Of a stretch of DNA of 64,000 nt, positions 4,120-11,556 are shown one piece after another. This stretch comes from an uncultured Thermoprotei archaeon (lineage in GTDB: Archaea; Thermoproteota; Thermoprotei; Thermofilales; B15-G2). The translations under genes and the position numbers were made by a program. The notes beneath the pieces were generated by a model, which did no database searches, had not been told where the DNA came from, and worked only from the letters and a program-made list of their open reading frames with translations. The first letter of the stretch is position 1, and every line of letters begins with the position of its first letter. Location of the stretch: NCBI GenBank assembly GCA_965367815.1, contig CBDUKN010000011.1, positions 2,361 to 66,360 on the forward strand. The letters are read 5' to 3'.

Positions 4120-5079
4120 ATGTCTCTGAGAACTGTAGAGTACTTGGGTAGAGTCAAGCTTCTGGCGAGGGAAGGTTATTTCGACTCCCTTATTGCTGAG
4201 ATTCGTAGTCTAGACGATGCTGCTGTCGAGTATTTCTCTAAGCGGCTATCTAAGGTAGGTATCTCAGAGAAAAGAGGCTTCTTTAAGTCTATTTTACCTA
4301 CGTTCATTTTCTCTATAATAGACTCTCTTGCCCCTTACTTGAGGTTAACTACTTCACGTATAGTGAAAGAGTACTCATCACTAGTCGACGTTATGGGAGA
4401 TCCTGAAGAAGACTTCGTCAACTATACGTGTGCTGAGGAAATAGAGACTGCACTTGATACTCTCAGGTGGATGTCCCGGCTAAGTGACTTTAAGAAAATA
4501 GCCTTGTCAAAGGCTATTTCCGTTATCTCCGAGGTTCTTTATTCAAAGGGCTCCATGCTTTCTAATATTCAGTCATTAGCCGATGCTCTGAGTAAAAAGA
4601 TTCTAGACGATTTATCTACTATATACAATTACTTTGAAATAAAGAAAAAAACACTTATCATAGGACTTCTACTTAAAACTAAGTGCTCAGGAAACAGATC
4701 GCACATCGACGTACTGAGATTAAGTCTGCTGGCCCTGCCTGGAATAGATCAGCGTATAACAAACCTCTTCTTATATTACTTGACTAAAGTACTATTTAAA
4801 GACGAAGCTTCCCTAAGCTCGCTACACGTACCTATAGACCCACATGTAGCTAGACCTGCAATTAGGGTAGGTATAGTATCTAAGCTGCCGAGTAACCCTA
4901 GGTACGCTTCAAACAGATACAGGGAGTTTCAGACTATTGCAAAAGTTCTTTTCCCTGATGACCCCACAGCCCTTTATACACTGAAGCTTGTTGGACTAAA
5001 GTTCTGTAAACACAAGCCTGCTTGTGACCTATGCCCTCTATTTTTCAACTGTGATTACGCCTTAACATCACCCGAATAA
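4120..5079 (+). CDS. HhH-GPD (endonuclease III-like) superfamily protein with N-terminal extension and [4Fe-4S] motif
   Basis: HhH LLALPGIDQRITN, PIDPHVAR (conserved Asp), C-terminal CKHKPACDLCPLFFNC. Confidence 0.75.
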   Translation: MSLRTVEYLGRVKLLAREGYFDSLIAEIRSLDDAAVEYFSKRLSKVGISEKRGFFKSILPTFIFSIIDSLAPYLRLTTSRIVKEYSSLVDVMGDPEEDFVNYTCAEEIETALDTLRWMSRLSDFKKIALSKAISVISEVLYSKGSMLSNIQSLADALSKKILDDLSTIYNYFEIKKKTLIIGLLLKTKCSGNRSHIDVLRLSLLALPGIDQRITNLFLYYLTKVLFKDEASLSSLHVPIDPHVARPAIRVGIVSKLPSNPRYASNRYREFQTIAKVLFPDDPTALYTLKLVGLKFCKHKPACDLCPLFFNCDYALTSPE

Positions 5080-5154: not shown

Positions 5155-5916
5155 GTGAAGAATAAGCCTCTTAACGAGGTAACTAAAGGAGAACTAAAGT
5201 CTCTTGTTAGAAAATTCTCCAAAAAGGGGCTAAAGCTCTATGATACCTCTGGGAAAGTACTTGGCTTTATTGTGAAAATATCTGTAGACAAACACACTAA
5301 AAGAGCAAAATCAATTGTAGTAGTACTCGAGAGTGGTGCTAGAAAAACTTACTCTGCAGAAAAAATAGAGGTTAACCCGAAGAAAGGCTTTATCTTAGTA
5401 CCCAAGAAAACTCGACGCGAAAATAAACCTAAGCCTTCTCTAACGCCTGCTCCTCAAGAAAATATTTCTCAAGACATATCGTACACAGAAGCAGAGTTAT
5501 CAAAAATTATCACTGAAATAAAATCTCTAGAAGAAGAAATGAAGAGAATAATAGACGCCAAAGCCAAAATCTGCGTTAAGTACGCGAGAAACGAAATAAG
5601 CGAAACTTTTGCTCAGAAAATGCTAGCAGATCTCGATAGGAAAATGGCTCAGCTCACCGAGCAAGCGCTAAAACTTCTGCCTTACACTAAGGAGCTCTAT
5701 CAAGTACTTAGAGGGTACAGATTAAAGCTTGTAAGGGAATACGAGGAAGAATACATAAAAGTCATGCTGTGCGGAACTCGTGCAGACACACAAGTAAAAC
5801 TCAGCTATCTTAAAGAAAAACTAGACAGAATAGACTCCTTAATGACTAACCTTCAGTCGCTAGAGCTGCTTCTTAAGCGCGTACGCTCACTGAGTACTTC
5901 TCCGGTAACAATATAA
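5155..5916 (+). CDS. PRC-barrel + coiled-coil protein, CdvA-like
   Basis: N-terminal KLYDTSGKVLGFIVKI...EKIEV...ILVP PRC pattern, Pro-rich linker, long heptad helices with KYARNEISE. Confidence 0.55.
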   Translation: MKNKPLNEVTKGELKSLVRKFSKKGLKLYDTSGKVLGFIVKISVDKHTKRAKSIVVVLESGARKTYSAEKIEVNPKKGFILVPKKTRRENKPKPSLTPAPQENISQDISYTEAELSKIITEIKSLEEEMKRIIDAKAKICVKYARNEISETFAQKMLADLDRKMAQLTEQALKLLPYTKELYQVLRGYRLKLVREYEEEYIKVMLCGTRADTQVKLSYLKEKLDRIDSLMTNLQSLELLLKRVRSLSTSPVTI

Positions 5917-5940: not shown

Positions 5941-5995
5941 AGAGTGATGAGGGTCTTAAGTGATGATAGGTGATTAGAAACCCACGCTCTGACTT
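5941..5995 (+). ncRNA. C/D box guide sRNA
   Basis: C GTGATGA 5944-5950, guide GGGTCTTAAGTG, D' ATGA, C' GGTGATT, guide AGAAACCCACGCT, D CTGA 5989-5992. Confidence 0.8.
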
Positions 5996-6153
5996 TATTC
6001 TTCGCGCACATACTCTAATATAATGTGGAATGTGTTCTTACCGCACTTCTTACAGTAAAGGTAGAGCTGTTTAAAATCCCTTATATCATAGCCTACTCTA
6101 AGCTCTTTCTCTTCACCGCACTCTTGACATTTAATCCTCCAGTATCCAGTCAT
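5995..6153 (-). CDS. Small zinc-ribbon protein (52 aa) ending in Glu-Glu; not in ORF track
   Basis: Manual translation MTGYWRIKCQECGEEKELRVGYDIRDFKQLYLYCKKCGKNTFHIILEYVREE; SD GAGGTGA overlaps the stop of the upstream RimK-family gene. Confidence 0.85.
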   Translation of the reverse strand: MTGYWRIKCQECGEEKELRVGYDIRDFKQLYLYCKKCGKNTFHIILEYVREE

Positions 6154-6158
6154 TTCTA

Positions 6159-7040
6159 TCACCTCTTTACTTCTTCTTCAACATACTTGACGATAGCTAA
6201 AGGTACGTCGACTCCTGTAACTTTACAGAGTTCCTCGAAATCTGGACTCCCGTTAACTTCTACTATTACCGGCCCCTCTTTCGTCTCTACTATGTCTACG
6301 CCGGCGTAGCCTAGTTTAAGGCACTCAGCTGCCTTAACGGCTATTTCTCTATACTCGGGTGGCAGCGTACACTTTTCACCTCGTCCCCCTTGAGCTATAT
6401 TCGTCTTCCAAGAGCCTGGTGCAGCATACCTATACATTGATGCAACAACCTCTCCTCCAACTACAAACGCCCTTATATCTCTTCCCGGCTTCTCGAGGTA
6501 CTCTTGAACATAGAGCGGCTTTCTAAACTCTAGGAGAGTCTTCATGACTTCAAAAGCCACATCAGGGTCGCTTACTTTCACAGATCCGTAGCCCCTGGAG
6601 CCCATTATGGGCTTAACTACTACCTCTCCTAGTCCTTTTACAGCAGTAAGCGCTGACCCTAAGTTTTCTGAAATAAAAGTCCTTGGAACAGGTAGTCCCT
6701 CTTTCTCTAGTATAGCTAAAGTGAGGTACTTATTTCGAGTAATGAATAGAGCCTGCGTAGAATTAACTACCTTTATTCCATACAGCTCCATATGCATAAA
6801 GAAGCCTATTCTAGCTAAAAACTGCTCAACGCTTATTGAGAGACCAAAAGACCGTAAAAGTACAGCATTAGGTAAAAAAGACCTATTTCCTACAATAAAC
6901 CTCGGGCCCCCGCCTATCCATGCGCCTATTCTTCTGAGAGAAACATAAATTCCCCTATGTCCTCTTCGCTTTATTGCATCTAAAAGCCTCCTGCAAGCAT
7001 GAGGCGGGAGCGGAGCGTCGTGTACTACAGCAATATCCAT
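6159..7040 (-). CDS. RimK/LysX family ATP-grasp alpha-L-glutamate ligase
   Basis: RNKYLT, VVKPIMGSRGYG, YVQEYL, DIRAFVVGG, WKTNIAQGG, EVNGSP; probable start MDIAVV at 7040 (track starts at 7103). Confidence 0.92.
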   Translation of the reverse strand: MDIAVVHDAPLPPHACRRLLDAIKRRGHRGIYVSLRRIGAWIGGGPRFIVGNRSFLPNAVLLRSFGLSISVEQFLARIGFFMHMELYGIKVVNSTQALFITRNKYLTLAILEKEGLPVPRTFISENLGSALTAVKGLGEVVVKPIMGSRGYGSVKVSDPDVAFEVMKTLLEFRKPLYVQEYLEKPGRDIRAFVVGGEVVASMYRYAAPGSWKTNIAQGGRGEKCTLPPEYREIAVKAAECLKLGYAGVDIVETKEGPVIVEVNGSPDFEELCKVTGVDVPLAIVKYVEEEVKR

Positions 7041-7111
7041 AGTTCTCACTACACATAGTCGCCGCACTAGATAAACTTTATATAAGGACTCCAGCAAATT
7101 CACGTTCTAGT

Positions 7112-8806
7112 GTGACTACGTTCACTAAAACCATACAATATATATTTTCACTAGACCCTTACTACAAGTTGTTTGCCTTAAGCCACACAAAGCTTGTCGC
7201 AGAATCCTCGCTTAAATCGCTCATAAAGGACCTCGCATCGCTGCAGTTAGCTAGTGGAGCATTTCCTGCCGGCTGGAATGTACTTTACTCTGAAAGCCCT
7301 TTAGCATCTGCGAAAGCCCTTTTAGTAATGAGGACGCTGCCTGAAGCATCTAACAGAATAATTAAGTATTTAAAGGAGAGTATTTCGTCGTACGGATTCT
7401 GGAAAGAAAACCCTACTCAGCTTTCAGCTGTGGAAGACTTTATTAATCCCCGCGACTACACGACGTCAAGTCTATACTCAAGCCTCTTGGCAGCATATGC
7501 TCTTAAATTAGCTGGATGCAAGACCTATGAGAACTTCATTGAAGCTCTTAAAGCGGCCCAAACCTCTAATGGTTTGTGGTATTCTCAAGACCGGCCCTCG
7601 GTGCTGATATCTTCATTGGCAATAATACTCTTTAAGGACTCTCTTGGCGAATCTGCACTTCTTGCAGCTAAAGGTCTTAAGTCCCTCCTGCCTACACTCG
7701 ACCCATCTCCTCTTACAGCACTTGCCTACTTAGGACTAGGACTTTTAAACCCAGATTATGCTAGAAAAGGACTAGAAATACTGCGCGACAAACAGCTACC
7801 AAATGGTGGCTGGGGAGTGAAACAGAAAATTTCTAGCCCTGCTTTAACGTCGCTTATACTCTTTATATTATCAAAATACAGTGTTCTAAATACTTATAAA
7901 CATCTTACATCAAGTTTAAATAGTTATTATTCTAAACTACTTGAACTAAAGAAAATAATAATTAACAACTATCCTATTATCGAAAGCAAACTAAAAAATT
8001 TACTCATACATAACTATATACTTTTTCCAAAGAGCAAAAAAGAGACTTTAATGCGAATATTCGTTCTCTCCACCTTTTCTAATTTTAGAGGAGATGTAGA
8101 TATTTTCAATGTTTTTTCAAACTTAATGAAAAGACTCGATTTTAAACCCCTTATAGAGCACACTGACTCAGTTCTCTCTGAAGCTATTTTCGATGTGCTT
8201 TTCAGTTATGATATCTATAGATCGCTTGTTCTCAAGAATACAAAATCAATTATTTTATTTAAGAATTTTATTAAGGAATTTAAAGAATTTGAATGCATTC
8301 CATTAACTTCCTTTACATATAAGCTTGCAGAGTATATTCTCTTCAAGTGTTCTTCCCAAATCCAGGAAAAACTGAGTAACCTGGGAAGACTACTTTATAT
8401 GTATAATCGCAAAATTTTTAATCAATCGACTCTTCTCCTTTGTTTGGAAACTTTACCTGGCTTAAGTAGGTATTCTGCAGATTTCTTCCTGTTTCTGTCC
8501 TGCAATATAACTGGCATAATTAGGTCTCATTACTCATTTTTACCTGTAGACTGGAGCATCGTCAAACCTCTTATTATGTGCGGTGTTTTTTCATCAAAAC
8601 TTATTTCGGCTTATAAGGTTAAAGGAAGAGTCTACGACAGTGTAATCAATTTACTTTCATCTATACTTTATAATAATATTCATAAAGCCTATTACCTTTC
8701 TTATGTTTCTGAACAGTGGTGCTTTAAGAGAACATGTGTGAGTATCAAAGGCCCCTGCCCTCTAGCCTCAATTTGTGTTCAAAAATATAGAAGCTACAGT
8801 CCGTAG
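7112..8806 (+). CDS. Fusion of prenyltransferase/squalene-cyclase-like alpha-alpha repeats and an HhH-GPD glycosylase-like domain
   Basis: Repeats LQLASGAF, YGFW, AQTSNGLW, KQLPNGGWG; C-terminal LETLPGLSRYSADFF, LPVDWSI and a four-Cys cluster CFKRTC...CPLASIC. Confidence 0.65.
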   Translation: MTTFTKTIQYIFSLDPYYKLFALSHTKLVAESSLKSLIKDLASLQLASGAFPAGWNVLYSESPLASAKALLVMRTLPEASNRIIKYLKESISSYGFWKENPTQLSAVEDFINPRDYTTSSLYSSLLAAYALKLAGCKTYENFIEALKAAQTSNGLWYSQDRPSVLISSLAIILFKDSLGESALLAAKGLKSLLPTLDPSPLTALAYLGLGLLNPDYARKGLEILRDKQLPNGGWGVKQKISSPALTSLILFILSKYSVLNTYKHLTSSLNSYYSKLLELKKIIINNYPIIESKLKNLLIHNYILFPKSKKETLMRIFVLSTFSNFRGDVDIFNVFSNLMKRLDFKPLIEHTDSVLSEAIFDVLFSYDIYRSLVLKNTKSIILFKNFIKEFKEFECIPLTSFTYKLAEYILFKCSSQIQEKLSNLGRLLYMYNRKIFNQSTLLLCLETLPGLSRYSADFFLFLSCNITGIIRSHYSFLPVDWSIVKPLIMCGVFSSKLISAYKVKGRVYDSVINLLSSILYNNIHKAYYLSYVSEQWCFKRTCVSIKGPCPLASICVQKYRSYSP

Positions 8807-9855
8807 AGAGTCGCGTACATATGTACAGCAGAGTGAACTGCTATTATATGTGTCTCGACTCTCTCCTTAAAGTCTCTCTTTCTTTCGCTCGAGAAGAAAA
8901 GAGATATACCGTGCCTGTTGGCGTAGCCTACTAGCCTCTCGTCGAGCCTCGCTATTCCCGTCCCCGGTCCAAGTACTCGTTCTATTTCTAGGTCGTAGTC
9001 TACCTCACAGTTCTTTAGACCTTCAGGCGGCGTACACCCCATACCGTGGGCCTCTACTTGCTTGCGTACTGCATCTATTATATCTTTACACTCTTCTAAT
9101 GCCCCCTCAGGCACTATAACACAGAACCCCTGATGTTCTCCCTCATGTAGGTCAATAATAAGGCTAGGCTTTATACTATCAATGAAATCTCTTAAAGCTA
9201 TGTTTTCAGGTAAATCTATTTCCTTGCTTAAACAGTCATAATCTATGACCTTGCCATCCATTACATAAAACGCTCGTGAAACTATTTCAAGTTTTTCTGA
9301 TTTACGGCTAAGGGAGGGAACTAAAACTCTCATTCTATCCAATTTTTCTCGAAGATCTTCACTGGTATTTAATATGTTACTAAGGCTTTTCGCTATCATT
9401 ATGCTGGTGGTCTTCTCAAAGCCCGGCTTGTAGACTAAGCATATATTTCTAAAAATTCCTATTGTCAGCTCTTCTAGCTCTATTATTTCTCCGTAATTTT
9501 TACAAAGTGTATTTAAGTCGTTGTAATCGGCTATCTGTATTTTCTCCTCAAACATTTCGGAAAAGACGTGCTCAAGCGGACTATAGCCTACAGGGTCTCT
9601 ACAGAAAAGTACGTAGAGATTTGCTGAAACAGGTAGGGCCTCAGCAGCCTTTATAGCAGCTAGTACTCCGGCAGGCTCGTCTCCATGGACTCCAGCAGTG
9701 ATTAATATATTTGGTCGATCTTCTCCTGCCTCGATTACTCCGGCCAAAATATCGTGTCCGAGCCAGTCTTTAGACACTAAGACCTGCTTGTCAAATATAC
9801 TTTCACAAGATATTTTTGCCACTAATTCTTCGTATGTCATAGTCACGCTAAGCAA
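8794..9855 (-). CDS. M14 family zinc peptidase, succinylglutamate desuccinylase/aspartoacylase-like
   Basis: ITAGVHGDEPAG (HxxE) and IIDLHEG zinc ligands; C-terminal SSE as likely catalytic Glu. Confidence 0.8.
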   Translation of the reverse strand: MLSVTMTYEELVAKISCESIFDKQVLVSKDWLGHDILAGVIEAGEDRPNILITAGVHGDEPAGVLAAIKAAEALPVSANLYVLFCRDPVGYSPLEHVFSEMFEEKIQIADYNDLNTLCKNYGEIIELEELTIGIFRNICLVYKPGFEKTTSIMIAKSLSNILNTSEDLREKLDRMRVLVPSLSRKSEKLEIVSRAFYVMDGKVIDYDCLSKEIDLPENIALRDFIDSIKPSLIIDLHEGEHQGFCVIVPEGALEECKDIIDAVRKQVEAHGMGCTPPEGLKNCEVDYDLEIERVLGPGTGIARLDERLVGYANRHGISLFFSSERKRDFKERVETHIIAVHSAVHMYATLYGL

Positions 9856-9928: not shown

Positions 9929-10690
9929 GTGCCCGTTAGAAGAGTTAAATCGGGTATTCCAGGACTAGATGAAATACTGCACGGAGGATTTCCTGAAAGA
10001 AATGTAGTGCTGCTTTCAGGTGGACCTGGTACAGGTAAAAGTATCTTCGGCCAGCAGTTCTTGTATTATGGTTTAATGAGCGGCGAGCCCGGAATTTTAG
10101 TGGCGTTAGAGGAGCATCCTGTACAAATAAGAATTAACATGAGTCAATTTGGATGGGATGTTCGAAGATATGAAAACGAGGGCCTCTTCGCTATAGTTGA
10201 TGCTTTCACAGGAGGAATAGGTGAAGCAGCAAAAAGAGAACGCTATGTTGTGAGAGATCCTGACGATGTATCCCTTCTAACAGATGTTCTGAGACAGGCT
10301 GTAAAAGACTTAGGAGCAAAAAGAGTCGTAATAGACTCCGTTACAACACTCTACATTACTAAGCCCGCCGTAGCTAGAGGCGTTGTAATGCAATTAAAAC
10401 GTGTTCTCTCAGGCCTCGGATGTACATCAATACTAGTATCACAGGTCTCAGTTACTGAGAGAGGTTTCGGAGGCCCTGGAGTAGAGCACGCTGCAGACGG
10501 TATTATAAGACTAGATTTAGACGAGATAGAAGGAGAACTCAAGAGAAGCCTAATAGTGTGGAAAATGAGAGGCACAAGTCACAGTATGCGCCGCCACCCA
10601 TTCGAAATAACGGATAAAGGAATAATAGTTTACCCAGATAGAGTCCTTAAGTTCACTAGACGCGGTTTTCTAGAAGAAAAATTAACTTAA
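9929..10690 (+). CDS. KaiC-domain RecA-superfamily ATPase (PH0284-like)
   Basis: SGGPGTGKS Walker A, VALEEHP, RVVIDS Walker [20 protein letters not shown]. Confidence 0.92.
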
Positions 10691-10695
10691 AATAA

Positions 10696-11556
10696 ATGTT
10701 AACGTATATTTTTAGACCGCAAACCAATAACCTAATTTTAGATGGCGAAACGCTAATATCAATTATCTACAATAGACCTGAAAAGATTTCATGTAATTTA
10801 GGTCTCAATTCATGTAAAGTAGAATACTCAAACAGTACAGCAACTTTAGGCAAATATAAAATAGATTTAAATTATTTAAAATCCATTAGAATAGACAAAA
10901 GTTGTGTTTACGCAGTTTCCCCTTCAGGAGAGCTAATTAAGCTAGCGTTTTTTTCAGGGCAACATTTCTATAAGTTACGTGCTATTTCACCACAGACTGC
11001 TCCTACAGTAGAGATAGATGGCATACACATGCATCGAGTAAAGGATACTACTCCTTGGAAAGACTCGTACTTGAAAATAAAATTTCTCAAAATTAGGCCA
11101 GGAGCAGTAGTTCTAGACATATGTACAGGACTAGGCTATACCGCTATTCACTCACTAATGCGAGGCGCTAAAGAAGTAATTTCAATTGAAAAAGACGAGA
11201 ACATATTGAAGCTAGCTGAACTAAATCCGTGGTCCTGGAAACTATCAGACCATAGAATAACAATTCTCCTGGGAGACGCCTCTGAAGTAGTCGAATACTT
11301 AAGGCCCTTCTCCTTCAACTACATAGTACATGACCCTCCAAGAATCAGCCTCGCAGGAGAACTATATAGCCTTGAATTCTACAAAAAACTATACACGCTT
11401 CTAAAACCTAAAGGAAAACTATTCCACTACACTGGCCAGCCTTTTGAAAAAATAGGCTATAAAATAATCAAAGGTATTCTCAACAGGTTAAGAGCTGCAG
11501 GATTTAGAAGAGCAGCATACATTAGCGAAATTACTGGGATAATAGCCTCAAAATAG
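10696..11556 (+). CDS. Archaeal class I SAM-dependent methyltransferase (COG2521-like)
   Basis: PTVEIDGIHMHR, LDICTGLGYTA, HDPPRISLAGELYS. Confidence 0.85.
   Translation: MLTYIFRPQTNNLILDGETLISIIYNRPEKISCNLGLNSCKVEYSNSTATLGKYKIDLNYLKSIRIDKSCVYAVSPSGELIKLAFFSGQHFYKLRAISPQTAPTVEIDGIHMHRVKDTTPWKDSYLKIKFLKIRPGAVVLDICTGLGYTAIHSLMRGAKEVISIEKDENILKLAELNPWSWKLSDHRITILLGDASEVVEYLRPFSFNYIVHDPPRISLAGELYSLEFYKKLYTLLKPKGKLFHYTGQPFEKIGYKIIKGILNRLRAAGFRRAAYISEITGIIASK

What the first reader, a model, noticed from the sequence alone, without database searches (positions are those of the whole stretch)
5995..9855. Candidate writer-carrier-eraser peptide-ligation system: RimK/LysX ligase + Glu-Glu-tailed Zn-ribbon protein + M14 peptidase
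Seen: the ATP-grasp ligase (6159-7040) is translationally coupled to an unannotated 52-aa CxxC/CxxC protein ending ...YVREE, and an M14/AstE-like zinc peptidase lies on the same strand 1.7 kb upstream. Known: E. coli RimK extends the C-terminal Glu-Glu of protein S6; LysX/ArgX load substrate on the C-terminal Glu of the Zn-ribbon carrier LysW and a peptidase (LysK) releases the product; M14 carboxypeptidases remove polyglutamate. Inference: either a reversible protein glutamylation system or a new amino-group-carrier pathway. The small protein is not LysW (no EDWGE) and no lysY/lysZ genes are in the window, so this is not the known Lys/Arg route.
Basis: partly seen in the sequence, partly recalled or inferred. 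Interest (0 to 1): 0.78.

Follow-up and report, generated by a model that had tools for sequence, protein, structure and literature searches.

The report
RimK-type ligase with small zinc-ribbon gene
The three genes are real, but only the ligase and the small zinc-ribbon gene form a conserved pair, the small protein's Glu-Glu end is not conserved, and the peptidase is a separate neighbour, so a three-part tagging system is not supported.

Summary
All three genes exist as described. The ligase (6159-7040, minus strand) is a RimK-family ATP-grasp enzyme. The 52-aa CxxC/CxxC protein (5995-6153) follows it after 5 nt, behind a GGTGA ribosome-binding site. The 8794-9855 product folds as an M14-type metallopeptidase with an intact HxxE...H zinc site.

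The writer-carrier-eraser reading fails most of its own refutation tests:
- **Small protein.** It is a single-copy core crenarchaeal protein, found in 86 of 301 sampled genomes, including Sulfolobales and Pyrodictium. It persists in Thermofilum, which lacks the ligase.
- **C-terminus.** It is variable. A 94%-identical relative reads through the stop codon.
- **LysW.** The small protein is basic and unrelated to LysW.
- **Ligase.** It belongs to a Thermoproteota-wide orthologous clade. It sits next to the small gene only in the Thermoproteales/Thermofilales class (31 of 34 genomes, versus 0 of about 35 elsewhere).
- **Peptidase.** It co-occurs with the ligase only in this genus, and an opposite-strand gene separates the two. 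Its Thermofilaceae homologues have lost the zinc histidine.

Most likely this is an inherited ligase/small-protein transcription unit whose ligase substrate is unknown. RimK/S6-like glutamylation of the small protein remains possible (about 0.25).

The parts
5995..6153 (-). SMALL: a 52-aa zinc-ribbon protein (MTGYW...YVREE). It belongs to a single-copy core crenarchaeal family of 44-81 aa with invariant W, two CxxC knuckles and one G.
   Evidence: alignment A1; AlphaFold pLDDT 92
6154..6166 (-). Junction between ligase and SMALL. The ligase stop TGA is followed by 5 nt and then the ATG. A GGTGA Shine-Dalgarno motif overlaps the stop.
   Evidence: similar motifs lie upstream of many homologues
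6159..7040 (-). LIG: RimK-family ATP-grasp ligase, 293 aa. It is the only RimK paralogue in the genome.
7112..8806 (+). Opposite-strand 564-aa gene lying between the ligase and the peptidase. Its C-terminal part is paralogous to the 4120-5079 product (HhH-GPD/DUF2400-like, with a C-x6-C-x2-C-x5-C motif). It is divergent from the ligase.
8794..9855 (-). M14-fold metallopeptidase-like protein (probable start at the ATG at 9840), with H52xxE55, R81DP, D230LHE and S317SE. It is transcribed on its own.
5155..5916 (+). P253: a conserved neighbour convergent with SMALL. It has no Pfam hit and was read by eye as a PRC-barrel-like N-terminus plus coiled coil. Homologues lie next to SMALL in 21 of 41 loci here and in Thermoproteaceae.
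9929..11556 (+). KaiC-like ATPase (9929-10690) and a methyltransferase (10696-11556). They form the other edge of the syntenic block and are divergent from the peptidase/ligase slot.

Best explanation
This is not a three-part writer-carrier-eraser system. It is a two-gene transcription unit plus an independently transcribed peptidase.

**Shown**
- The ligase is a RimK-family ATP-grasp enzyme with its ATP/Mg residues conserved. It belongs to one orthologous clade that runs through the Thermoproteota.
- SMALL is a core crenarchaeal zinc-ribbon protein with weak eL42/L44e-like similarity. It occurs, always as a single copy, in many lineages where the ligase is elsewhere in the genome or absent.
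- The ligase-SMALL adjacency arose once, in the Thermoproteales/Thermofilales ancestor, and has mostly been kept.
- The M14-like protein has an intact zinc site here, but an opposite-strand gene separates it from the ligase. It co-occurs with the ligase only in this genus.

**Inferred**
- Like its relatives, the ligase activates a carboxylate with ATP and joins an alpha-amino acid (probably Glu) to it.
- Its conserved substrate is something other than SMALL and remains unidentified: another protein's tail, free Glu, or a small molecule.
- SMALL is co-transcribed because of inherited gene order and has its own housekeeping role, possibly related to translation or the ribosome.
- The M14-like protein is an ordinary carboxypeptidase or amidohydrolase.
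For: **SMALL is independent of the ligase**
- It is present in 57 of 61 relatives and in 86 of 301 genomes across the phylum, always as one copy.
- Named homologues come from Metallosphaera, Sulfuracidifex, Pyrodictium and Thermofilum.
- Thermofilum-type genomes keep SMALL without any ligase.

**Neighbours of SMALL change with lineage**
- They include the ligase, the M14-like gene, a Rad50-like gene, an ASCH-domain gene, Topo VI and ThrRS.
- In several ligase-linked and most M14-linked loci a C/D-box sRNA gene sits between the enzyme gene and SMALL.

**The tail of SMALL is unconstrained**
- The C-terminus is not conserved. A 94%-identical relative reads through the stop codon.

**The ligase is more widespread than the pair**
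- The ligase tree has a clade of 53 sequences (support 98) that follows taxonomy. Orthologues in Desulfurococcales, Sulfolobales, Methanomethylicia and other lineages are not linked to SMALL.
- No adjacency was seen in about 35 non-class genomes that have both genes.

**The peptidase is loosely connected**
- It is not in the ligase's operon.
- Ligase and peptidase occur together in only 2 of 61 genomes.
- Thermofilaceae homologues lack the zinc-binding His.
- A distant homologue lies in an Opp-transporter/amidase/M24 peptide-catabolism operon.
Against: - The ligase-SMALL order is kept in 31 of 34 class genomes across two orders, while most other flanking genes differ. In many of these the gap is only 5-40 nt. 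That degree of retention is unusual for unrelated genes.
- All 13 M14-like homologues found among 61 genomes lie next to SMALL.
- Two enzymes of peptide-bond chemistry occupy the same slot upstream of SMALL.
- No alternative substrate for the ligase was identified. The genome has no LysW, no second RimK paralogue and no beta-RFAP synthase.
Confidence: 0.5

Rival explanations
1. RimK/S6-like tail modification. In Thermoproteales/Thermofilales the ligase adds one or more alpha-linked Glu residues to the flexible C-terminus of SMALL, much as E. coli RimK extends ribosomal protein S6. SMALL is a housekeeping protein that is modified only in lineages that have the adjacent ligase.
For: - The gene pair is conserved, on the same strand and tightly spaced, across two orders.
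- The ligase matches RimK over its full length, including the N-terminal domain (7qyr 6e-50, 4iwx). It matches LysX/ArgX only over the C-terminal two thirds.
- SMALL has an unstructured tail with acidic residues in most species.
- SMALL shows weak similarity to r-protein eL42, and some pipelines label it L44E. A universal substrate with a patchy modifier is the pattern seen for S6 and RimK.
Against: - The terminal residue and the tail length (5-30 residues) vary freely. They do not differ between ligase-linked and ligase-free species.
- Even the closest relatives end in RS or in a read-through tail.
- Ligase orthologues in other classes are never next to SMALL, although SMALL is present there.
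- SMALL is not a chain in the solved Sulfolobus or Pyrobaculum ribosome structures.
Confidence: 0.25
2. This is a reversible writer-carrier-eraser system in which the ligase loads Glu (or another amino acid) on SMALL and the M14-like peptidase removes it.
For: - All three genes lie within 4 kb in this genus.
- The zinc site of the M14-like protein is intact here.
- Every M14-like homologue found is next to SMALL.
- Where the ligase was lost (Thermofilaceae), the M14-like protein has lost its zinc His. That would fit an eraser made redundant.
Against: - The three families co-occur in only 2 of 61 genomes, both in one genus.
- An opposite-strand gene separates the peptidase from the ligase.
- Most ligase-bearing lineages have no M14-like gene at all.
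- A distant homologue lies in a peptide-uptake operon.
- The terminal Glu is not conserved.
Confidence: 0.07
3. A new amino-group-carrier (LysW-like) pathway. SMALL carries a biosynthetic intermediate on a C-terminal Glu side chain, loaded by the ligase and released by the peptidase.
For: The only support is the formal resemblance: a zinc ribbon next to an ATP-grasp ligase.
Against: - SMALL does not match the LysW model.
- hhalign against a real LysW found next to a LysX in this dataset gives 5% probability.
- The family is basic, with median pI about 8.
- There is no conserved terminal Glu.
- No kinase, reductase or aminotransferase genes accompany the pair in any of about 60 loci.
- The ligase N-domain is RimK-like, not LysX-like.
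Confidence: 0.03
4. SMALL is a non-substrate partner of the ligase, and in Thermofilaceae of the catalytically dead M14-like protein. It would act as a zinc-ribbon adaptor or regulator that brings these enzymes to a shared target such as the ribosome or a nucleic acid.
For: - Different enzymes are tightly linked upstream of SMALL in different lineages: ligase, M14-like, ASCH.
- M14-like homologues that lack the zinc His still keep the RDPxG and DLHE motifs, which suggests binding without catalysis.
Against: - No fusions of SMALL to any enzyme were found among 1.84 billion representative proteins.
- Partners that change with lineage are equally well explained by chance placement of a small housekeeping gene at the ends of operons.
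Confidence: 0.1

Closest known systems
E. coli / Pseudomonas RimK (ribosomal protein S6--L-glutamate ligase; PDB 4iwx, 5zct, 7qyr)
   Same: Both are RimK-family ATP-grasp enzymes. The match covers the full length including the N-terminal domain, and TIGR00768 is above its cut-off. ATP/Mg-binding residues are invariant in the clade.
   Different: - Archaea have no bS6.
- The RimK equivalog model scores 126 bits against a cut-off of 331.
- The candidate protein substrate (SMALL) has no conserved Glu-Glu end.
- Bacterial rimK is not normally next to its substrate gene (own knowledge).
LysX/ArgX with the carrier LysW (amino-group carrier pathway of Thermus, Sulfolobus, Thermococcus)
   Same: A RimK-family ligase is encoded next to a roughly 55-aa zinc-ribbon protein.
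   Different: - The LysX model is below its cut-off (186 versus 276 bits), and only the C-terminal two thirds align to LysX/ArgX structures.
- SMALL is unrelated to LysW. It is basic and has no EDWGE and no conserved terminal Glu.
- No downstream pathway genes accompany the pair.
MptN (tetrahydromethanopterin:alpha-L-glutamate ligase) and CofF
   Same: MptN is the best-scoring NCBIfam model (233 bits). Three Desulfurococcales/Sulfolobales-type orthologues lie beside a beta-RFAP synthase homologue.
   Different: - The MptN score is below its cut-off of 350, and CofF scores only 62 bits.
- The window's genome and nearly all SMALL-linked genomes lack beta-RFAP synthase.
- The Methanosarcina sequences fall in a different branch of the tree.
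M14-like metallopeptidases of the 2qvp / REP34 (4oko) / AstE-AspA type
   Same: The fold matches (Foldseek probability 1.0, TM 0.5-0.65). The HxxE, P-x-G and DLHE motifs align to REP34 and 2qvp.
   Different: - The sequence is very divergent: Pfam M14 scores 16 bits against a cut-off of 21.6.
- The protein has roughly 80 more residues than its closest structural matches (348 aa against about 265-290).
- The family is tiny, with three hits in the word-indexed search of the 5.8-billion-protein collection and 13 homologues among the 61 related genomes.
- Many members have lost the zinc His.
Ribosomal protein eL42 (L44e)
   Same: The SMALL profile hits archaeal eL42 first among PDB sequences (E 1.6e-4). 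Both zinc knuckles align. IMG labels several members 'ribosomal protein L44E'.
   Different: - The two halves align in swapped order, and the long eL42 loop is missing.
- The scores are marginal.
- SMALL is not a modelled chain of the Sulfolobus or Pyrobaculum ribosome structures.

Membership tests
RimK family alpha-L-glutamate ligases (TIGR00768 / PF08443) | Sequence match to the family model above its curated cut-off | tested here: met
   TIGR00768 scores 212.6 bits (cut-off 143.4). PF08443 gives 2.2e-35.
RimK family alpha-L-glutamate ligases (TIGR00768 / PF08443) | Conserved ATP-grasp nucleotide/Mg-binding residues | tested here: met
   K143, R187-D188, D249, E261 and N263 are invariant in the 15-sequence clade alignment A2. 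Assigning them to ATP/Mg binding rests on knowledge of the family.
RimK family alpha-L-glutamate ligases (TIGR00768 / PF08443) | ATP-dependent ligation of L-Glu to a carboxylate | not testable with these tools
   This needs an enzyme assay.
RimK proper (S6--Glu ligase, NF007764) | Equivalog score above cut-off, and a protein substrate ending in Glu-Glu | tested here: not met
   The score is 126.5 bits against a cut-off of 331. The terminus of the candidate substrate is variable.
LysX/ArgX-LysW amino-group carrier system | Carrier matches the LysW model and ends in the conserved EDWGE with a terminal Glu | tested here: not met
   TIGR01206 does not hit SMALL in the genome. hhalign against a LysW from L156 gives 5% probability. 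Only 13 of 41 homologues end in E.
LysX/ArgX-LysW amino-group carrier system | Ligase matches the LysX equivalog | tested here: not met
   TIGR02144 scores 185.9 bits against a cut-off of 275.6. LysX/ArgX structures align only from residue 79 onward.
LysX/ArgX-LysW amino-group carrier system | Accompanying LysZ/LysY/LysJ/LysK-type genes | tested here: inconclusive
   None lies beside the pair in about 60 loci, judged by gene clustering and the annotation of selected clusters. The whole genome was not searched for these families.
MptN / CofF cofactor glutamate ligases | Equivalog score above cut-off | tested here: not met
   MptN scores 233.1 bits (cut-off 350). CofF scores 61.6 bits (cut-off 300).
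MptN / CofF cofactor glutamate ligases | The genome makes the cofactor (beta-RFAP synthase present) | tested here: not met
   TIGR00144 has no hit in a 99.4%-complete genome. It is absent from nearly all SMALL-linked genomes. F420 biosynthesis genes were not searched.
M14 metallocarboxypeptidase fold | M14 alpha/beta fold | tested here: met
   AlphaFold pLDDT is 92.3. Foldseek top hits are 2qvp, CPA1 and REP34, with probability 1.0.
M14 metallocarboxypeptidase fold | HxxE...H zinc ligands | tested here: met
   H52, E55 and H232 are present in the window protein. The first His is lost in the Thermofilaceae homologues.
M14 metallocarboxypeptidase fold | Catalytic Glu on the late beta-strand | tested here: inconclusive
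   The window's S317-S-E aligns near the S-E-T of 2qvp. No residue-level structural superposition was available. The same-genus homologue has G at this column.
M14 metallocarboxypeptidase fold | Pfam PF00246 above its gathering score | tested here: not met
   The score is 16.3 bits against 21.6.
Ribosomal protein eL42 (L44e) | Significant, collinear match to eL42 and presence in ribosome structures | tested here: not met
   The match is only marginal and in swapped order (E 1.6e-4). No strong hit to any chain of the Sulfolobus (8hku) or Pyrobaculum (9e6q) ribosomes.

The most novel reading that the evidence does not exclude
In Thermoproteales/Thermofilales a RimK-type ligase glutamylates the C-terminal tail of a core crenarchaeal, eL42-like zinc-ribbon mini-protein. 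In this genus an M14-fold peptidase trims the tail again. That would be the first archaeal protein-tail glutamylation cycle, and it would give a function to an uncharacterised universal crenarchaeal protein.
Probability: 0.1. Interest if true: 0.75.

Novelty: new member of a known kind. Interest (0 to 1): 0.38.

Why it matters
If the ligase really modifies SMALL, this would be an archaeal counterpart of RimK/S6 tail glutamylation acting on a protein conserved across Crenarchaeota. As the evidence stands, the value is more modest:
- It defines an uncharacterised, single-copy, core crenarchaeal zinc-ribbon protein family that is often mislabelled L44E or left as hypothetical.
- It shows that a Thermoproteota-wide RimK clade has no assigned substrate.
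- It shows that the apparent three-gene module is specific to one genus.

Tried and rejected
The ligase alignment was used instead.
- **Word-based homologue searches** found only 3 hits each for SMALL and for the M14-like protein. Profile and six-frame searches were needed.
- **Foldseek on the SMALL model** gave only non-significant hits like the zinc-ribbon ribosomal protein bL33 and no LysW.
- **Rfam at gathering threshold** did not recognise the C/D-box sRNA upstream of SMALL. It was identified from its C, C' and D boxes by eye.
- **Literature searches** on RimK in Thermoproteales, on small zinc ribbons near Topo VI, and on MptN gave nothing specific.
- **MptN-type cofactor role in this genome** was rejected as a firm assignment, because beta-RFAP synthase is absent.
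- **A LysW-like carrier** was rejected.
- **A regex search for LysW next to the LysX-type loci** found only one example, in L156. That positive control is therefore thin.

Full report
**1. What is in the sequence**

On the minus strand, an ORF from the ATG at 7040 to 6159 encodes a 293-aa ATP-grasp protein.
- Pfam RimK gives 2.2e-35, and TIGR00768 (RimK family) scores 212.6 bits against a cut-off of 143.4.
- The specific equivalog models all fall below their cut-offs: MptN 233 of 350, LysX 186 of 276, RimK/S6 126 of 331, CofF 62 of 300.

The ligase stop codon TGA (6161-6159) is followed after 5 nt by an ATG at 6153.
- This opens a 52-aa ORF, MTGYWRIKCQECGEEKELRVGYDIRDFKQLYLYCKKCGKNTFHIILEYVREE.
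- A GGTGA Shine-Dalgarno motif overlaps the ligase stop.

The ORF at 9855/9840-8794 gives only sub-threshold Pfam hits to AstE/AspA and M14.
- Its AlphaFold model (pLDDT 92.3, pTM 0.91) matches M14 carboxypeptidases and the 2qvp/REP34 group (Foldseek probability 1.0, E 1e-10).
- It carries H52-G-D-E55, R81-D-P, D230-L-H-E and S317-S-E.

Between the ligase and this peptidase lies a 564-aa gene on the plus strand (7112-8806). The three genes are therefore not one operon.

**2. The small protein is a core crenarchaeal gene, not a dedicated carrier**

- A six-frame search finds it in 57 of 61 related genomes.
- A profile of 41 members (alignment A1) finds it in 86 of 301 genomes sampled across the phylum and in 38 of 129 genera, always as one copy.
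- Named members come from Thermofilum adornatum, Thermoproteus, Metallosphaera, Sulfuracidifex and Pyrodictium abyssi. They are annotated 'hypothetical' or, by IMG, 'ribosomal protein L44E'.
- In 1.84 billion representative proteins the family has only 41 clusters. Apart from two long repetitive proteins that match only weakly in many short stretches, all are 44-81 aa, and no fusion to another domain was seen.
- Invariant positions are W, the two CxxC knuckles and one Gly. The N-terminus is usually M-T-x-W.
- The AlphaFold model is a plain zinc ribbon with a free tail. Foldseek gives only non-significant hits like the zinc-ribbon ribosomal protein bL33.
- Against PDB sequences, the profile's best hits are archaeal eL42/L44e (E 1.6e-4), with the two halves aligned in swapped order. 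No chain of the Sulfolobus or Pyrobaculum ribosome structures matches strongly.

**3. The C-terminus is not conserved**

- Among 41 homologues the last residue is E in 13 and D or E in 21.
- Ligase-linked copies end in D/E in 9 of 15 cases. Unlinked copies do so in 12 of 26.
- Tails after the last zinc knuckle run from 5 to 30 residues. The median pI is about 8.
- In the window's own genus the second species ends in ...EYVRS.
- A 94%-identical relative ends in ...EYVHEEKSQSVGF. This is exactly the read-through of the window's TAA stop (gaa gaa TAA agt cag agc gtg ggt ttc TAA).
- The LysW model does not hit SMALL. hhalign against a genuine LysW (ending EDWGE) found next to a LysX-type ligase in locus L156 gives 5% probability.

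**4. Linkage**

In 41 neighbourhoods of ±8 kb, the order shares this block: methyltransferase< KaiC< [ligase or M14-like]> SMALL> P253< ... DUF1512> p125>.

| Arrangement | Loci |
|---|---|
| Ligase>SMALL | 15 |
| M14-like>SMALL | 12 |
| Both (own genus only, counted in both rows above) | 2 |
| Neither | 16 |

Across whole genomes:
- All 13 M14-like homologues found among 61 genomes are next to SMALL.
- Except in the window's genus, those genomes have no ligase orthologue. One (G033) has only a weak partial RimK-family match, probably a LysX/ArgX-type paralogue.
- Thermofilum (genus g5) has SMALL with neither enzyme.
- Combining, ligase and SMALL are adjacent in 3 of 3 genomes of the window's own order that have a ligase. 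They are also adjacent in 20 of 20 genomes of family f10 (the Pyrobaculum/Thermoproteus group) and in 8 of 11 genomes of family f14.
- They are adjacent in none of about 35 genomes of other classes (Sulfolobales-, Desulfurococcales- and Pyrodictium-type) that have both genes.
- In those other classes SMALL lies beside Topo VI A/B, ThrRS, SRP54 or, tightly, an ASCH-domain gene.
- In 26 of 40 loci of the order, a C/D-box sRNA gene with the conserved guide GCGAGCAGCCA lies directly upstream of SMALL. In several of them it lies between the ligase or the M14-like gene and SMALL.

**5. The ligase**

- A profile of the SMALL-linked ligases matches bacterial RimK structures over the full length (7qyr 6e-50, 4iwx 4e-43). 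It matches LysX/ArgX only from residue 79 onward.
- A GTDB-wide scan plus a tree of 108 sequences places the window's ligase in a supported clade (SH-aLRT 98) of 53 Thermoproteota sequences that tracks taxonomy.
- The SMALL-linked members are the Thermofilales-like order and the Thermoproteaceae.
- The Methanomethylicia orthologue (50% identical) and those of Desulfurococcales, Sulfolobales and other Thermoproteota families in this clade have no zinc-ribbon gene beside them. Neither do the more distant Bathyarchaeia and Thorarchaeota relatives outside it.
- Three Desulfurococcales/Sulfolobales-type loci carry a beta-RFAP synthase homologue next to the ligase, which hints at an MptN-like role there.
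- The window's genome (99.4% complete) and nearly all SMALL-linked genomes lack beta-RFAP synthase.
- The window's genome also has no LysW and no second RimK paralogue.

**6. The M14-like protein**

- The family is tiny, with three hits in the word-indexed search of the 5.8-billion-protein collection and 13 homologues among the 61 related genomes.
- In the alignment (A3) the window, its 68%-identical relative and its same-genus homologue keep HG[D]E.
- The Thermofilaceae homologues have S, A, Y, F or L in place of the His, and no Glu at the probable catalytic position. They keep the RDPxG and DLHE motifs. They are probably not active peptidases.
- A distant homologue with an intact HxxE lies in an operon with an Opp-type peptide transporter, an amidase, an M24 peptidase and a GntR regulator. 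That is ordinary peptide catabolism.

**7. Interpretation**

- 'No linkage in other genomes' is not met for the ligase-SMALL pair, which is a real, old and mostly retained pair within one class. It is met for the three-family module, which is specific to one genus.
- SMALL is far more widespread than the pair, survives loss of the ligase, and changes neighbours with lineage.
- The ligase clade is likewise more widespread than the pair.
- The best-supported reading (about 0.5) is an inherited two-gene unit whose ligase has a conserved, still unknown substrate, with an unrelated M14-like neighbour.
- The main rival (about 0.25) is lineage-specific RimK/S6-like glutamylation of the tail of SMALL. 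The parallel of a universal substrate with a patchy modifier fits it, as do the RimK-like N-domain and the retention of the pair.
- The full writer-carrier-eraser model gets about 0.07, an adaptor role about 0.1, and a LysW-like carrier pathway about 0.03.
- All functional steps are inferred from sequence and gene order. Nothing here shows activity.

**8. Novelty**

The ligase is a new, unassigned member of the RimK family. SMALL is an uncharacterised conserved family. The M14-like protein is a divergent member of a known fold. The finding is of moderate interest. It would rise sharply only if glutamylation of SMALL were demonstrated.

Noticed in passing
L034-L067, 15-35 nt upstream of SMALL (e.g. 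L055, L040, L050); own genome G000:C9:71257-71269 (locus L198): A conserved C/D-box sRNA lies immediately upstream of SMALL in 26 of 40 loci of the order. It has a C box GATGATGA, a C' box TGATGA, the guide GCGAGCAGCCA and a D box CTGA. In the window's genome it is not next to SMALL, and a likely copy sits on another contig behind a TATA-like box. Rfam did not recognise it at gathering threshold.
   Followed up: partly
window 5995-6153 and alignment A1: The SMALL profile hits ribosomal protein eL42/L44e first among PDB sequences (E 1.6e-4). The N- and C-terminal zinc knuckles align in swapped order, as if SMALL were a permuted mini-eL42 without the long loop. IMG labels several members 'ribosomal protein L44E'.
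   Followed up: partly
window 5155-5916 (+): This 253-aa protein has no Pfam hit and was read by eye as a PRC-barrel-like N-terminus plus coiled coil. It is convergent with SMALL in 21 of 41 loci of the order, and homologues hold the same position in Thermoproteaceae (clusters c22, c93). It is the most widely kept neighbour of SMALL within the class.
   Followed up: partly
window 7112-8806 (+) and 4120-5079 (+): These two paralogous proteins share an HhH-GPD/DUF2400-like C-terminal domain. The 4120-5079 product ends in a C-x6-C-x2-C-x5-C motif of the Fe-S cluster loop type. The larger one has weak squalene-cyclase-like repeats at its N-terminus. Relatives lie divergently next to the ligase in this genus, in another family of the order, and in other Thermoprotei lineages that lack the SMALL linkage (L033, L035, L045, L097, L118).
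   Followed up: partly
L036, L047, L054, L056, L057, L060, L062, L063, L065, L067 (M14-like genes): The Thermofilaceae homologues of the M14-like protein have lost the first zinc-binding His and the probable catalytic Glu, but keep the RDPxG and DLHE motifs. They look like pseudo-enzymes.
   Followed up: partly
L093, L096, L122: Ligase orthologues in Desulfurococcales/Sulfolobales-type metagenome-assembled genomes lie next to a beta-RFAP synthase homologue (methanopterin pathway; E 3e-26, below cut-off). This suggests an MptN-like role in those lineages.
   Followed up: partly
L171 (Pyrodictium abyssi AP028907.1), L174, L194, L195: In this lineage SMALL follows an ASCH-domain gene after 10-17 nt. 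In Sulfolobales-type genomes it lies against Topo VI A/B, SRP54 and deoxyhypusine synthase.
   Followed up: partly
window 5995-5997 and downstream; protein P0002: A 94%-identical relative has a sense codon where the window has the TAA stop of SMALL. This extends its tail by KSQSVGF, which is the window's own downstream reading frame.
   Followed up: yes
L039, L041, L050 (Thermofilum-type genomes): An approximately 800-aa protein lies directly upstream of SMALL on the same strand in these loci. By eye its C-terminus looks like an SMC/Rad50-type ATPase. A 364-370-aa KaiC-like gene, a Brix/Imp4-like gene and a Pcc1-like gene lie downstream. These labels are by inspection, not from a family search.
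   Followed up: no
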